Shown here: piece by piece, positions 4,421 through 29,479 of the stretch
Numbering within the stretch: position 1 is the first letter of the stretch
Layout: each line of letters starts with the position of its first letter
Assembly (NCBI GenBank): GCA_040143965.1
Contig: JASJQH010006893.1
Coordinates: 1 to 49,945, forward strand
From: Basidiobolus ranarum
Taxonomy: Eukaryota
Direction: 5' to 3'
Length of the DNA stretch: 49,945 nt
Notes under the pieces: model-generated
Databases searched by the model: none
What the model saw: only the letters and a program-made list of their open reading frames with translations
Told to the model about the DNA's origin: nothing
Translations under genes and position numbers: made by a program

Positions 4421-7400
4421 TTACTTCAATCCAAATCCCTCACTTTCAGTTATCGCAGTAAGTAGCTTTTCATTAAGCTTTTCTCTTGTTGAATATCGAT
4501 AAATACAAAGTTGATTGAAACAAGTATGCGCGATAGGAAACCTAATATTGCGTAAGTATAGCTATACAAATAGAAATACATATAACCATTTTGTTACCTT
4601 TCCGAATCCTCTCCTAAGCATGATATTTTGAAAGTGAGATTTGCAATACCGGTAGCCGGAATTCGGTCACTTCCTGTAATAAATACAAGAAGCTGGCGCT
4701 GTAATTCCGATGTCATCGCACCAAATATGCTCCAAAAGTTCCTACACGAGACGAACTTTAATTTCTCAGAATACCGCTGCAACATTCAGAGATGGATGTA
4801 CCTTATAGTTTCCTCTTCTTTATCAAAGCCATCATATTCAGTCACTGATTTAAGTTGCTCTAAATCTAATGCTTCCGCACTTCCACGGACCAACAGCTCG
4901 ATTTCTTCAGGCCGGAAAAGCTAAGAAGGTGTGAAGTGTTACTAGTCAATGATATGGAGTATGGAAATGGCAACAATATACTTACTGAGAGCGCATTCCC
5001 CCCACAGACATGGTAAAATCCACGCTTGAATGGTTCGAATTGCTTTGCGATTGACTGTGTCAGGATAAATTGCGAGTATTTGGTAACATATTCTATCATT
5101 CGAGAGATTTTAATACTAAAGTCTTGAACACAACATAAAACGAAATTCTAAAAACCTTGTCGATTCTCTTTGGTAACAGGGATATTTTCTCCATTAGTCA
5201 CCAATGGTATCTGGTAGACGTCTCCAAACACTTCGTATTCACCAACGAAATCACGGCAAAATACTTCCTCTAAATCATCATTATCGTAGTCTAAGAGCGC
5301 CTGCAGACCTTTGGCCAGGGCCTAGTTATAAAGAGTGTGAGTATGGGAATTTATCAAACTAGAAATAAAGAATCCTACAGGGCGAAGGGTCTTCAAGTCA
5401 TCGAAATCAACAGGAATGTTTAACAATTTCTTATAACAGGCCAGTGGAAACTGGATGTCTAAGATGGTGGAATTGTATATTGCTAAGCCAATTATCTATT
5501 ATGTACTATATGTTAGAGATCAAGGATGGGCCAGTGGAGTACTAGACACTACGATAGGAAATCCTAACTTACGACGCCAACAAGGTAATACTGATCACTT
5601 GTCTCAAAACTAGCAGGATTGAACCAGAAATAGTTCGACTCTTCGTCCCATGTAAACATCCCTTCACGACGATTGGTAAATATGTATTAAGGCGCGAATA
5701 GAACGAGTAACCATGCAAATACCATATTGAGGATTAAACAATTCCCTAACAAGGAGGAGAAACCACTCTTTGGTCAGACCGCCAGCATCGATCCCGTCTT
5801 CATTGACGAACTCAATTTTCAGTTTCTTTTTTAAATCCATTTGGTGAACAGAGAGCTATGTCGAGAGACCACACGAGAGATACGTTAATGGGTCAAGTCA
5901 CTCAACAAATCACTACTGTGAAAAGTATCAGGCTGTTACCTGATTGAGTGAGTCTTCTATAAGGAAATCACGTCGGATGTGGAGAACCAAGTAAGGAACT
6001 GTGACTCGCTTTTGAAAGAGAATTGTGATGATTGCTTCCTAAAGCATTTACTAAAGGTAAATATACAGCACATTGCATGTCACAGTAAGGGTCGTTTACC
6101 TTGACTTTGTTTTCCATTTGTCTTCTTGCATCAACTTCAAGGATTCGAGTTTTAGCACCCATACTAATCAAAAAGGGGTACTGGCAGAAAGAGAATCGTC
6201 TAGTCATGAAGAGACATGAGTCAGAGTATTAGCACATCAAGCATCATCATCATATTTACCCAGATCTTTGCTGCCATGAATCGTAATCGAGAACAAGATC
6301 AATGTAGTCAACAAGAGTATTATAGAAGTCAAAGATAGGTAACTTCTGGCTGATGTTATTGGCCGCAACTAATATAAAGAAGTTATAGTTAGTATTAATG
6401 GCCAGCACAGAGTGTAGCTTGAAAGCTCACATAATAATGCCATAACACGAGCAGCGGCTACTATTCGCCAATCGTTGTCATAGGTGATTGTAGATCTTCC
6501 TCTCGAGCGCTGTTCTTTAGTAAGGCGATAGGTGATAAAATGATTCACAAGATCCACCCGCTTGCTGATTATGTTTTTGTTGAGCCTAGTAATAATATTC
6601 CAATTAAACACGGCTAGTAACAAACACTCATCACGTGGCAATAAGTTACCTAGAGAACCAGTTGACGATGTAATGGTGTATCTCATTGCCAAGCGAAGAT
6701 ATCAATCCAAATATTCTCTTAAGCAGGTTGTGGTGATATTGAGTCTCTTGAGGAAAGTTGTGCTGCAACAGTAAAGGATTCTATGGTGCAAATAGTGTTA
6801 GGATTCTGCATAAATCAACCTTATAAATTCAAATTACCTCTAATATTATAATCAAAAATTTGACATCATCCTTGCGTCTCAATTTCCTAGCGAACTCGTA
6901 GTTGTTAGAGTCGTATCATCAATTTTAACTGCGTAAATTAATTGCTACCTTCCAGGTCTCTTCAGCAGTCTATCCGTTGCCGACATTAAAGAACGGATTA
7001 CACTCGCAGGCTATGTATTTCCAAAAACAAAATTCAGAGAGTTGTTTATCTTGACAACATAATGCAGCCTACATACCAACTCTAGGATTAGTCTATAAGC
7101 TTCACGAACATCGTCCAAGGCGATTCCACACTCTTCCAATGAAATGCTACAACCCTTCTCAGCAAGTGATTTGCGAATTAATAAGTTTCCATAATTTGTA
7201 TTGAAGAAACGTATTTTACATTGCTGAAACTAAAATTCAGGGCGTCACAAGAAGAAAAGGTGTTCTTGATGAGACGCTCAACAGAATCATAATTACTCGG
7301 TGAACCTGGCACTTTACAAGAATCAATCGCCCTCTTTAATTGAGTTAAATTCATACTTGTTCCATCACGGTGATAACCTAAGATTCCATTTATATACAAC

Positions 7401-27685: not shown

Positions 27686-29479
27686 TTAATGTTGAGACCA
27701 TTCAATGGATTTGATGTCAATTCCTTCTTGAACCATTTCCCAGAGTGGACTCATATCACGAAGTTTGTGTACGTGATTCTTGACACACTCAACAACATAA
27801 TCAACTTCAGCTTCAGTTGTAAAGCGGCCAATACCAAATCGAATACTACTGTGAGCCATATCGTCATCAGCGCCGAGAGCACGCAATACGTATGATGGTT
27901 CCAATGAAGCAGATGTACAGGCACTACCAGATGAAAGGGCAATCTCCTTCAAAGCCATAAGTAGAGACTCTCCTTCAACATAAGCAAAAGAAAGGTTAAC
28001 ACAGCCAGGATAATTGTGTTCAGGGTCTCCATTCCTAACAACATTAGGTACACCAGATGTAATTCCGTTGATCAATCTGTCGGATAGCATTTTGATTCTT
28101 TTGGTATCGTACTAGAAAGAAAATGTTCATTAGCTAAAATTCAACTTGAATGGTAATAGACAAAATAATATTCTCAGAACCCCTGCACAACCGTCATAGC
28201 ATTATAGAGTAGATTTTTCGTAAAAACTAACATTATATATGCTCAGTTATGTTATACTCCTTAAAGAAGATTCATCACCGAATATTTCCCCATAAAATGA
28301 ATATATACTAACAGCCATATCTTCTTGAGCAATTCTACAAGCCTCACCTAGGCCGACAACCAAAGGTGTAGGAACAGTACCACTTCTAAGACCTCTTTCT
28401 TGCCCACCACCGGATTGAATAGGCTCCAATCTAACTCTGGGTCTTCTACGAACGTAAAGAGCACCAATACCTTTAGGACCATACACCTTGTGACCAGAGA
28501 TAGACATCAAGTCTATGTTCATGTCGTTGACACTAAGAGGGATCTTGCCCACAGCTTGAGCAGCGTCAGTGTGGAAGAAGATTTTCTTTTCGCGACAGAT
28601 CTTTCCAATCTCGGCAACAGGTTGGATAACACCAATTTCATTGTTTACAGTCATGACGGAGACGATGGAGGTGTCAGGTCTGATGGCAGCTTTCAAATCA
28701 TCAAGGTTAATGATACCGTTGGTCTGAACTGGTAAGTATGTAACATCGAATCCTTCCGATTGGAGAACACGGCAGGAATCAAGGACACATTTATGTTCCT
28801 ACATCAGAGTGATACCATTAGAAATCGAGATATAATAACAAGGTTCTAAATAAAAAATATTTACAGTTTGAGTAGTAATAATATGATTCTTCTTTCCTTT
28901 ATAGAATCTAGCAACTCCCTTAATACTGATATTGTTGGATTCGGTGGCACCAGAGGTGAAGATAATTTCCTTAGAATCGGCACCAATTAAATCGGCAATT
29001 TGCTGTTGAGATAATATATGATTAAAGAGGATTCAATTATACAAAAAGTAAGAAGTAATTGTAACCTTTCTGGCTACTTCAACAGCATCTTCAGACTCCC
29101 AACCATATTTATGTGTTCTAGAGTGAGGGTTACCATATTGAGCAGTCAAAAAAGGAAGCATAGCATCAAGAACACGAGGATCAGTTGGACTTGTGGCTTG
29201 CATATCCAAATAGATTGGACGACCATTACTAGAGGACAATACTTTTTCTTTAAAATTTTCGGCTACTACACCAGATTGTTAGTTCAACTAAAAAGAGTCA
29301 GACAAAATATTAGCATACATACCAGGAGTGGCTTCTGGAGTATTTTCAGCCACATTTGTAGGGCGGGTAGCAGACACAAAAGTTCTCTTAGCTAGTGTGA
29401 TTGATGCAGCCACACGGGCATTTGAGCTGGCTTGTCGAAAAGCAAGATTTAAAGGTACACGAGAGAGTTGTCTTAACAT
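27686..29479 (-). CDS. NFS1: Mitochondrial cysteine desulfurase, 5 exons
   Basis: Presequence [69 protein letters not shown] (PLP Lys); [17 protein letters not shown] (catalytic Cys); C-terminal IEWSQH. Confidence 0.98.
28167..28286 (-). ncRNA. Intronic box C/D snoRNA, predicted guide for 2'-O-methylation of U6 snRNA (human C62 equivalent)
   Basis: Lies in the unusually long 201-nt last NFS1 intron (28112-28312), sense to the host gene. 7-bp terminal stem AATATTC/GAATATT; box C GTGATGA (28278-28272); D' CTGA (28246-28243); box D CTGA (28177-28174). The guide TTGTGCAGGGGTT next to box D is complementary to U6 GGCCCCUGCACAA. Confidence 0.85.

What the first reader, a model, noticed from the sequence alone, without database searches (positions are those of the whole stretch)
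28167..28286. Hidden box C/D snoRNA in an NFS1 intron that would guide 2'-O-methylation of U6 snRNA
Seen: this intron is 201 nt against about 55-75 nt for most others. It holds a perfect 7-bp terminal stem enclosing box C (GTGATGA), D' (CTGA), a C'-like ATGACGG and box D (CTGA). The 13 nt before box D (UUGUGCAGGGGUU) pair with the U6 internal stem-loop sequence GGCCCCUGCACAA (11 Watson-Crick pairs plus 2 G-U, using the fission-yeast-type U6 sequence from memory). Established: the D+5 rule. It points to the third C of CCCC, which is human U6 C62, methylated under SNORD94. Inference: a fungal SNORD94-equivalent hosted in an Fe-S/tRNA-thiolation gene, a host-guide pairing I do not know to be described. 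AATCTTCT at the end of box C is also complementary to U6 AGAAGAUU and may be an accessory pairing; it is short and could be chance.
Basis: partly seen in the sequence, partly recalled or inferred. Interest (0 to 1): 0.8.

Follow-up and report, generated by a model that had tools for sequence, protein, structure and literature searches.

The report
Conserved fungal U6-guide snoRNA in NFS1 intron
The long intron of the Basidiobolus ranarum NFS1 gene holds a genuine-looking small guide RNA, also found in the same intron in distant mushroom-forming fungi, that is built to direct sugar methylation of the catalytic core of the splicing RNA U6, a job for which no fungal guide has been described.

Summary
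On the minus strand, the 201-nt intron 28312..28112 of the Basidiobolus ranarum NFS1 gene contains a 120-nt box C/D snoRNA (28286..28167). It has a 7-bp terminal stem, GUGAUGA, an internal hairpin flanked by D' and a C'-like box, a 13-nt guide and CUGA.

The decisive new evidence is comparative. Of 80 metagenomic NFS1 loci, 16 have an intron at the same codon, and all 16 carry a C/D-like RNA there. Eleven of the 16 (10 distinct sequences, one 97% identical in its exon to Piloderma croceum, Basidiomycota) keep the invariant guide GUGCAGGGGU, one free base, then CUGA, while the rest of the RNA diverges. A covariance model built without the window finds the window's element as its top hit.

The guide is complementary to the U6 internal stem-loop as printed in published U6 oligos. 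The D+5 rule points to the third C of CCCC, the site guided in humans by SNORD94.

Not shown: the host's U6 sequence, the RNA itself, or the methyl group. The proposed accessory pairing is not conserved.

No Rfam family matches. A 2023 fission-yeast study could not find guides for these cytidines. This is a new member of a known kind, of moderate-to-high interest.

The parts
28313..29479 (-). NFS1 (mitochondrial cysteine desulfurase) exons 1-4 with three short introns (186 nt in all), ending ...AQEDMA
   Evidence: tblastn of P0002 against the window, residues 1-327. P0002 is 100% identical over the query exon and is named cysteine desulfurase [Basidiobolus ranarum], on a contig of 49945 bases.
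28112..28312 (-). Host intron, 201 nt: 5' splice site GTTAGT (28312-28307), branch-like CTAAT (28133-28129), 3' splice site TAG (28114-28112)
   Evidence: The intron position is shared by 16 of 80 metagenomic NFS1 loci.
27686..28111 (-). NFS1 last exon (YDTKRIK...WSQH plus stop)
   Evidence: residues 328-468, 100% identity.
28167..28286 (-). Box C/D snoRNA, 120 nt, terminal stem to terminal stem
   Evidence: The covariance model R1, built from 10 metagenomic homologues only, aligns end to end to 28288-28164 at 17.2 bits, E 0.046, the top hit of the window.
28280..28286 (-). 5' arm of terminal stem, AAUAUUC
   Evidence: It is paired in both the MFE and the centroid structure.
28272..28278 (-). 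Box C, GUGAUGA
   Evidence: It aligns to the invariant GATG of the homologues.
28263..28271 (-). AUCUUCUUU, complementary to the AGAGAAGAU of printed U6. Possible accessory pairing; not conserved.
   Evidence: No 6-mer of AATCTTCT occurs in 0 of 10 homologues.
28243..28246 (-). Box D' CUGA. The model instead aligns AGGA at 28261-28258 to the degenerate NNGA D' of the homologues.
28198..28242 (-). Internal hairpin between D' and C' (GCAUAUAUA...UAUAAUGC)
   Evidence: in both MFE and centroid. The matching helix in the homologues has changes on both sides at 6 of its 8 pairs.
28191..28197 (-). Box C'-like, AUGACGG
   Evidence: The homologues have RTGAY at the same place.
28178..28190 (-). D guide UUGUGCAGGGGUU. 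The G at 28182 is the fifth base upstream of box D.
   Evidence: The core GTGCAGGGGT is invariant in 10 of 10 homologues. It is complementary to GGCCCCTGCACAA of printed U6 oligos.
28174..28177 (-). Box D, CUGA
   Evidence: Invariant in the homologues.
28167..28173 (-). 3' arm of terminal stem, GAAUAUU

Best explanation
The intron encodes a box C/D snoRNA. After splicing of the NFS1 pre-mRNA it would be trimmed to about 120 nt and packaged with the fibrillarin (Nop1) snoRNP proteins.

Its D guide would pair with the 5' strand and loop of the U6 snRNA internal stem-loop (GGCCCCUGCACAA). That places the third C of the CCCC run five base pairs from box D, for 2'-O-methylation. This C is the human C62 position, or S. 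pombe C56 by the six-base offset.

The RNA belongs to an old fungal family that sits in this same NFS1 intron in Basidiomycota and other fungi.

Shown here: the boxes, the stems, the guide, its conservation and its syntenic position.

Inferred: that the RNA accumulates, that the host's U6 has the printed sequence, and that the C is methylated.
For: (1) Canonical anatomy with a perfect 7-bp terminal stem. It is the only such element in 49,945 bases on either strand, against a randomised mean of 0.03.

(2) It lies in a 201-nt intron. The gene's other three introns average 62 nt.

(3) Of 80 NFS1 loci fetched from metagenomes, 16 have an intron after the same codon.
- In 11 of the 16 (10 distinct, as L008 and L010 are the same), the pattern GCAGGGG-NN-CTGA occurs once, on the coding strand, 100-130 nt into that intron. 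It occurs nowhere else in the 80 loci on either strand.
- Thirteen fixed bases would be expected about 0.01 times in that much DNA (my estimate).

(4) In the alignment of the 10 homologues, mean column identity is 58%. Box C GATG, the C' GA, GTGCAGGGGT and CTGA are invariant.

(5) Model R1, built without the window, picks 28288-28164(-) as the best hit of the window: 17.2 bits, E 0.046, against 10.2 bits for the next hit.

(6) The internal D'/C' helix is backed by compensatory changes.
- 82.7% of cells are paired, against 31-45% when the partners are slid.
- 0 of 500 shuffles reach the observed covariation score.

(7) Breadth: the exon of L014 is 97% identical to Piloderma croceum (Basidiomycota). 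The window is Basidiobolomycota.

(8) The target strings stand in printed U6 oligos: an Aedes U6 probe, a U6Rev primer and a U6 T7 template.

(9) Passages of Porat et al. 2023 (PMC10484740) say S. pombe U6 carries 2'-O-methyls at C55, C56 and C57. SNORD94 guides human U6 C62 (passages of PMC6894857).
Against: - The host U6 gene was never seen.
- There is no expression or methylation data.
- No Rfam family matches.
- The whole element folds no better than shuffles: z = -0.66, and 55 of 200 shuffles fold as well. This is usual for C/D RNAs.
- The model E-values are modest and roughly calibrated: 0.046 and 0.13.
- In 7 of 10 homologues the base 5' of GUGC is C or A. Pairing with a U6 of the printed type would then be only 10-11 bp.
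- Terminal stems of the homologues are short, 0-5 ungapped pairs.
- Five of the 16 intron-bearing loci differ. L001-L004 have a C/D RNA with other guides. L012 has only GCAGGGGTT before a variant box D, ATGA.
- I had no rRNA sequence to exclude a second target with the same 10-mer.
Confidence: 0.77

Rival explanations
1. It is a real C/D snoRNA, but the conserved D guide serves another RNA that contains the complement of GUGCAGGGGU, such as an rRNA site. The match to U6 would be secondary or unused.
For: In L001-L004 and L012 the same intronic RNA carries a D' guide that (from recall) fits the 5' region of 18S, so the family does have rRNA business. Canzler et al. 2018 (section read) stress that fungal guides often have several predicted targets.
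Against: The 10-mer matches the U6 stem-loop exactly as printed. U6 cytidines at this place are known to be methylated in S. pombe and human. B. ranarum extends the complementarity to 13 positions with U6-type flanks.
Confidence: 0.1
2. The RNA pairs with U6 but acts mainly as a chaperone or assembly factor. It would hold the stem-loop open, for example for U4/U6 annealing, and catalysis would be dispensable or absent.
For: The guide covers the 5' strand and loop of the stem-loop. The family has a conserved segment after box C (GCAC/GCGC, 10 of 10) that can pair with the guide's own 5' half, an unusual layout. Porat et al. describe a non-canonical U6 snoRNA, sno530, and protein helpers.
Against: Boxes C and D and the exact D+5 spacing are invariant in 10 of 10 homologues and in the window, as expected if methylation matters. 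The corresponding cytidines are methylated in the two species studied.
Confidence: 0.08
3. Chance arrangement of short motifs in an AT-rich intron, producing no functional RNA.
For: The boxes are short. Fold energy is not unusual. No Rfam hit.
Against: It is the only such arrangement in the window, with a randomised mean of 0.03. The same guide and boxes stand in the same intron in 11 of 16 other loci from distant fungi. The independent model hits it.
Confidence: 0.01

Closest known systems
Human SNORD94 (U94), box C/D guide for U6 Cm62
   Same: Same class of RNA, same target RNA and, by the D+5 rule, the same cytidine of the CCCC run. Passages of PMC6894857 give SNORD94 as the guide for U6 C62. 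That C62 is the third C is my recalled numbering.
   Different: No detectable sequence or structure similarity: no Rfam hit for SNORD94 or any other family at E up to 10. The host gene differs; the human host gene is recalled as not being NFS1, and no tool checked this. The relation may be convergence on a constrained target rather than common descent.
S. pombe U6 guides snoZ30 (mgU6-47, A41) and sno530 (A64); N. crassa CD11 (U6-Am47)
   Same: Fungal box C/D RNAs that guide U6 2'-O-methylation (passages of PMC10484740; Table 1 of PMC2780460).
   Different: They guide other positions. For C55, C56 and C57 the authors state they could find no candidate snoRNA. N. crassa Table 1 lists no U6-Cm target (0 occurrences). 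No snRNA-targeting C/D RNA was found in the A. fumigatus screen.
N. crassa CD4 (81 nt, intronic, 18S-Cm49 by the D' guide, no homologue then known in yeasts, plant or human)
   Same: Loci L001-L004 carry, in the same NFS1 intron, a C/D RNA of about 80 nt. Its D' guide ACATGCATGGCTTT-CTGA would, from recall of the 18S 5' region, direct exactly such a site (Table 1 of PMC2780460). L012 combines that D' guide with a short anti-U6 D guide. The two may therefore be one family that began as a double guide.
   Different: The B. ranarum RNA has no such D' guide. Model R1 does not detect L001-L004 or L012 at E up to 1. Whether N. crassa CD4 lies in nfs1 was not checked.
Fungal snoRNA families of Canzler, Stadler and Schor 2018 (The fungal snoRNAome)
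   Same: A kingdom-wide catalogue of C/D families with predicted snRNA targets.
   Different: The main text mentions only U6 alignment position 62 (S. cerevisiae U6-45, snR53 family) and U6-85 (an H/ACA family). Neither Basidiobolus nor NFS1 is mentioned.

Membership tests
Eukaryotic box C/D snoRNA | Box C (RUGAUGA) near the 5' end and box D (CUGA) near the 3' end, brought together by a terminal stem | tested here: met
   GUGAUGA at 28278-28272, CUGA at 28177-28174, and a 7-bp perfect stem.
Eukaryotic box C/D snoRNA | Internal C'/D' pair | tested here: met
   CUGA at 28246-28243 and AUGACGG at 28197-28191 flank a 45-nt hairpin. The homologues have NNGA and RUGAY around a covarying helix.
Eukaryotic box C/D snoRNA | At least 10 nt of guide directly upstream of box D, complementary to a stable RNA, with the target at the fifth pair | tested here: inconclusive
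   There are 13 of 13 pairs (2 of them G-U) to U6 strings printed. The host's own U6 was not available.
Eukaryotic box C/D snoRNA | Accumulates as a discrete RNA bound by fibrillarin, Nop56, Nop58 and Snu13 | not testable with these tools
NFS1-intron anti-U6 family (defined here: A1, R1) | Sits in the phase-0 intron after the codon matching P0002 residue 327 | tested here: met
NFS1-intron anti-U6 family (defined here: A1, R1) | Invariant GUGCAGGGGU, one free base, then CUGA, preceded by RUGAY | tested here: met
   The window has AUGACGG-UU-GUGCAGGGGU-U-CUGA. This core is present in 10 of 10 homologues.
NFS1-intron anti-U6 family (defined here: A1, R1) | Significant score to a covariance model built without the candidate | tested here: met
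   17.2 bits, E 0.046 (rough), full-length, best of the window. E is 0.13 when 143 kb are searched.
SNORD94 (Rfam) | Match to the Rfam covariance model at its gathering score | tested here: not met
   No Rfam match at gathering in the window. Only SNORD121A (19.2 bits, gathering score 44, offset from the element) and bxd_6 appear at E up to 10. The homologue L014 gives nothing relevant either.
SNORD94 (Rfam) | Guides 2'-O-methylation of the U6 cytidine equivalent to human C62 | not testable with these tools
   Predicted by the D+5 rule. Methylation was not measured.
N. crassa CD4-type (18S-Cm49 guide) | D' guide complementary to the 18S 5' region | tested here: not met
   The window's spacer AUCUUCUUUAAGGAGUAUAACAUAA shares nothing with the ACATGCATGGC guides of L001-L004 and L012.

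The most novel reading that the evidence does not exclude
The NFS1-intron RNA is the missing fungal guide for methylation of the C-run in the U6 internal stem-loop.

- It is an ancient gene-in-intron partnership that predates the split of Basidiobolomycota and Dikarya.
- It began as a double guide (18S C49 plus U6), and different lineages kept one half or the other.
- It carries a conserved self-masking helix: the segment after box C pairs with the guide's own 5' half. The guide would therefore have to be opened by a LARP7/Pof8-Bmc1-type U6 snRNP chaperone before it can act.
Probability: 0.3. Interest if true: 0.75.

Novelty: new member of a known kind. Interest (0 to 1): 0.62.

Why it matters
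U6 is the catalytic RNA of the spliceosome, and its internal stem-loop binds the catalytic metal ions.

In human and fission yeast the cytidines of this loop stem are ribose-methylated. In fungi, however, only guides for A41/A47 and A64 are described. The 2023 fission-yeast study stated that it could find no snoRNA for C55-C57.

A conserved, canonical C/D RNA aimed at exactly this run therefore does three things:
- It gives a concrete candidate and a search model (R1) for the rest of the kingdom.
- It makes the role of these methyl groups testable by deleting an intronic element.
- It shows that a snoRNA can stay in one intron of a mitochondrial Fe-S enzyme gene across phyla. That is an unusual host compared with the translation-related genes that usually host snoRNAs.

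Tried and rejected
- **Rfam.** The whole window at gathering score gave 0 matches. The region at E up to 10 gave nothing relevant. Fourteen homologous loci gave 0. The L014 and L001 introns at E up to 10 gave nothing relevant.
- **Host U6.** It is not in the window. No genome is held. Records behind the metagenome loci are not held. A scan of prokaryote genome contigs with a published 20-nt U6 primer site found 0.
- **Close Basidiobolus relatives in the protein collections.** No exon-sized fragment above 86% identity turned up, so the orthologous intron of B. meristosporus could not be seen.
- **Accessory pairing.** Rejected as a family feature (0 of 10).
- **Second-best model hit, 6211-6260(-).** It is an ordinary 58-nt intron.
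- **Earlier findings of the scan.** Nothing relevant.
- **Literature on an NFS1-hosted or C-run U6 guide in fungi.** Searches found none. Searches for printed fungal U6 strings found only animal and Giardia-study oligos.
- **Exon coordinates.** The intron sizes came instead.
Full report
**What is in the window**

The window is a whole 49,945-base contig of Basidiobolus ranarum.
- The largest NFS1 exon is 100% identical to the protein named cysteine desulfurase [Basidiobolus ranarum], recorded on a contig of that very length. B. meristosporus proteins follow at 94% and 90%.
- The lineage is Basidiobolomycota.
- NFS1 runs on the minus strand. Residues 1-327 of the annotated protein P0002 span 29479-28313, which is 1167 nt for 981 coding nt, so three introns total 186 nt. 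Residues 328-468 span 28111-27689 at 100% identity.
- The gap between them, 28312..28112, is a 201-nt GT...AG intron in phase 0 between ...EDMA and YDTK....

**Anatomy**

Read on the minus strand, in order:
- AAUAUUC (28286-28280), then one G
- box C GUGAUGA (28278-28272)
- a 25-nt spacer
- CUGA (28246-28243)
- a 45-nt hairpin (28242-28198)
- AUGACGG (28197-28191)
- the 13-nt UUGUGCAGGGGUU (28190-28178)
- box D CUGA (28177-28174)
- GAAUAUU (28173-28167)

The two ends form seven perfect pairs, which are present in both the MFE and the centroid folds. The overall fold energy is not unusual: z = -0.66, and 55 of 200 shuffles fold as well. This is normal for C/D RNAs, which are defined by boxes rather than by stable helices.

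A plain scan of the whole window, both strands, looked for RTGATGA...CTGA 50-140 nt apart closed by at least 6 perfect pairs. It returns only this element. One hundred first-order Markov randomisations gave a mean of 0.03, and 3 of 100 had a hit.

The 3' end lies 55 nt from the 3' splice site and 37 nt from the branch-like CTAAT.

**The decisive evidence is comparative**

*First lead: read-through proteins.* Prokaryote-style gene calls on fungal contigs run from the same NFS1 exon into the intron.
- Several such proteins end ...EEME-V..., showing an intron at the same codon.
- They then read xDES or SVTNR. On back-translation these fit a box C followed by AUC.

- tblastn of P0002, with direct reading, shows 16 loci with an intron after the residue-327 codon: L001-L004, L008, L010-L016, L020, L022, L024 and L025.
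- The other 64 show no break there. Many look bacterial or spliced.
- All 16 introns hold a C/D-like RNA.
- In 11 of the 16 (L008 and L010 are identical, giving 10 distinct sequences) the pattern GCAGGGG-NN-CTGA occurs exactly once, on the coding strand, 100-130 nt into the intron. It occurs nowhere else in the 80 loci on either strand.
- Thirteen fixed bases would be expected about 0.01 times in that much sequence (my estimate).

**The family**

Alignment A1 of the 10 distinct homologues has 58% mean column identity. The invariant parts are the GATG of box C, a GC.C block just after it, the GA of C', the ten bases GTGCAGGGGT and CTGA. So the guide is the best-conserved part of an otherwise drifting RNA, as expected if it must match an invariant target.

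RNAalifold predicts two helices. Counted on the MAFFT alignment:
- 82.7% of cells pair, against 31-45% when partners are slid by 1-3 columns.
- The covariation score is 0.327, against 0.10-0.13 for slid partners.
- 0 of 500 shuffles reach the observed score.

The internal D'/C' helix carries changes on both sides at 6 of its 8 pairs. One column pair, for example, reads GC four times, CG four times and AU once.

A covariance model built from these 10 sequences alone (R1) was run without filters over the window.
- It aligns end to end to 28288-28164(-) at 17.2 bits, E 0.046. The calibration is rough.
- The next hit scores 10.2 bits and is an ordinary 58-nt intron.
- Over 143 kb of window plus loci the same hit has E 0.13, while the training sequences score 80-108 bits.

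Same gene, same intron, same guide and a model hit together leave little room for chance.

**Taxonomic breadth**

- The exon of L014 is 97% identical to the NFS1 of Piloderma croceum F 1598. All of its named best hits are Agaricomycetes.
- A rough comparison with 42 named reference proteins puts L011, L013-L016, L020, L022, L024 and L025 nearest Agaricomycetes.
- It puts L001-L004 and L008/L010 nearest the one ascomycete reference, Xylaria. For L008 the margin is small (81% against 78% for a chytrid), so I leave L008 unplaced.

The family is therefore shared at least by Basidiobolomycota and Basidiomycota.

**The target**

I could not read the host's U6. It is not in the window. The records behind the loci are not held. 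A published U6 primer site is absent from the prokaryote genome collection.

- an Aedes U6 northern probe (PMC8456997, passage)
- a U6 reverse primer (PMC1950533, passage)
- a U6 T7 template that contains ...AGAGAAGATTAGCATGGCCCCTGCACAAGGATGAC... (PMC4072582, passage)

Against GGCCCCUGCACAA the B. ranarum guide makes 11 Watson-Crick and 2 G-U pairs. The fifth base upstream of box D (G at 28182) faces the third C.

SNORD94 guides human U6 C62 (PMC6894857, passages). That C62 is the third C is my recalled numbering. By the six-base offset implied by human A47 = S. pombe A41 (a reference title seen), this C would be S. pombe C56.

In the homologues the invariant core gives 10 pairs (9 Watson-Crick plus one G-U).
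- Three of the 10 add the U that pairs one position further, as in B. ranarum.
- Six have C there and one has A.

That fungal U6 generally carries this stem-loop sequence is established knowledge that I recall. No tool confirmed it for any fungus here.

**What is known**

- Passages of Porat et al. 2023 (PMC10484740) say that snoZ30 was the sole annotated U6 guide in fission yeast (A41), and that the authors identified sno530 for A64.
- Table 1 of Liu et al. 2009 (PMC2780460) lists only U6-Am47 (CD11) for U6 in N. crassa.
- The A. fumigatus screen found no C/D RNA aimed at U1, U5 or U6 (PMC2377427).
- The main text of Canzler et al. 2018 (PMC5824354; one section read, otherwise passages) names only two other U6 positions.
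- Full-text searches for an NFS1-hosted snoRNA or a basidiomycete U6 guide found nothing.
- The supplementary tables of these papers were closed and could list the family under a number.
- No Rfam family matches the window's element or its homologues.

I therefore file it as a new member of a known kind. It works like SNORD94, but membership in that Rfam family was tested and not met, and common descent is open.

**The accessory pairing**

AUCUUCUUU (28271-28263) is complementary to AGAGAAGAU of the printed U6 (8 Watson-Crick plus one G-U pair). Model R1 aligns AGGA just after it to the degenerate D' of the homologues.

If that were a working D', the fifth position would face the second G of ACAGAGA. 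I know of no modification there.

None of the 10 homologues holds even a 6-mer of AATCTTCT. An 8-mer match between a 25-nt spacer and an RNA of about 100 nt is expected a few times in a hundred (my estimate). I treat it as chance or a Basidiobolus-specific extra.

**Side observations on the family**

- L001-L004 (three distinct sequences) carry, in the same intron, a C/D RNA of about 80 nt with canonical boxes. Its D' guide is ACATGCATGGCTTT, and its D guide is different.
- From recall, that D' guide fits the 5' region of 18S. It would give exactly the site that N. crassa CD4 is listed for: 18S-Cm49, D', 13/0, 81 nt, intronic, with no homologue then known.
- L012 has that D' guide together with GCAGGGGTT in front of a variant box D, ATGA. 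Its box C reads ATGATTA. The G-to-T change in box C and the C-to-A change in box D would keep the one Watson-Crick pair between the two boxes.
- This suggests an ancestral double guide of which lineages kept different halves.
- The GCAC/GCGC block after box C, present in 10 of 10 homologues, can pair with the guide's own 5' half. The flanking pair reads GC four times, AU twice and UA once, and is broken three times.
- In B. ranarum the MFE fold pairs GUAUAAC with GUUGUGC in the same sense, but the centroid does not.

Whether this self-masking matters is open.

**Verdict**

My estimates:
- a real C/D snoRNA: about 0.95
- guides methylation of the third C of the U6 stem-loop run: about 0.77

The finding is of moderate-to-high interest because it supplies a candidate, and a family-wide search model, for a gap stated in the recent fission-yeast literature. 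It also documents an old snoRNA-host partnership with a mitochondrial Fe-S gene.

Noticed in passing
L001:4487-4571, L003 and L004 (same intron of NFS1): The same NFS1 intron in ascomycete-like contigs holds a C/D RNA of about 80 nt. Its D' guide, ACATGCATGGCTTT-CTGA, fits (from recall of 18S) the site listed for N. crassa CD4, 18S-Cm49. Its D guide is not anti-U6 (for example ...CAGCGTCTTCT-CTGA) and has no target I could name.
   Followed up: partly
L012:1900-2010: This RNA combines the 18S-type D' guide with a short anti-U6 D guide (GCAGGGGTT). Its box C reads ATGATTA and its box D reads ATGA, a pair of changes that would preserve the Watson-Crick pair between the boxes. It is a possible intermediate, or the ancestral double-guide form.
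   Followed up: partly
Alignment A1 columns 22-28 with 118-124 (L008-L025); window 28257-28251 with 28191-28185: A conserved block after box C (GCAC/GCGC, 10 of 10) is complementary to the 5' half of the anti-U6 guide, with one covarying flanking pair. The guide may be self-masked. In the window a similar pairing appears only in the MFE fold.
   Followed up: partly
Proteins P0147, P0217, P0238-P0253 (large protein collection): Prokaryote-style gene calls on fungal contigs translate the first 20-30 codons of this intron. The snoRNA's box C therefore appears in 'proteins' as xDES or SVTNR. Such read-through tails can be used to spot intronic snoRNAs, but they are also false protein sequence in the collections.
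   Followed up: partly
Protein P0001 (655 aa, NCBI, unnamed): The top hit of two searches, with a higher score than the self-hit, contains the N-terminal two-thirds of NFS1 twice in tandem. It is probably a tandem duplication or a gene-model artefact in some other organism.
   Followed up: no
Proteins P0003 and P0004: Basidiobolus meristosporus has two NFS1 proteins, 94% and 90% identical to the window's exon. Whether both genes keep the intron and the snoRNA could not be seen.
   Followed up: no
window 6201-6258 (-): The second-best hit of model R1 (10.2 bits) is an ordinary short GT...TAG intron that happens to contain GATGATGATGA and CTGA. It is not a snoRNA.
   Followed up: yes
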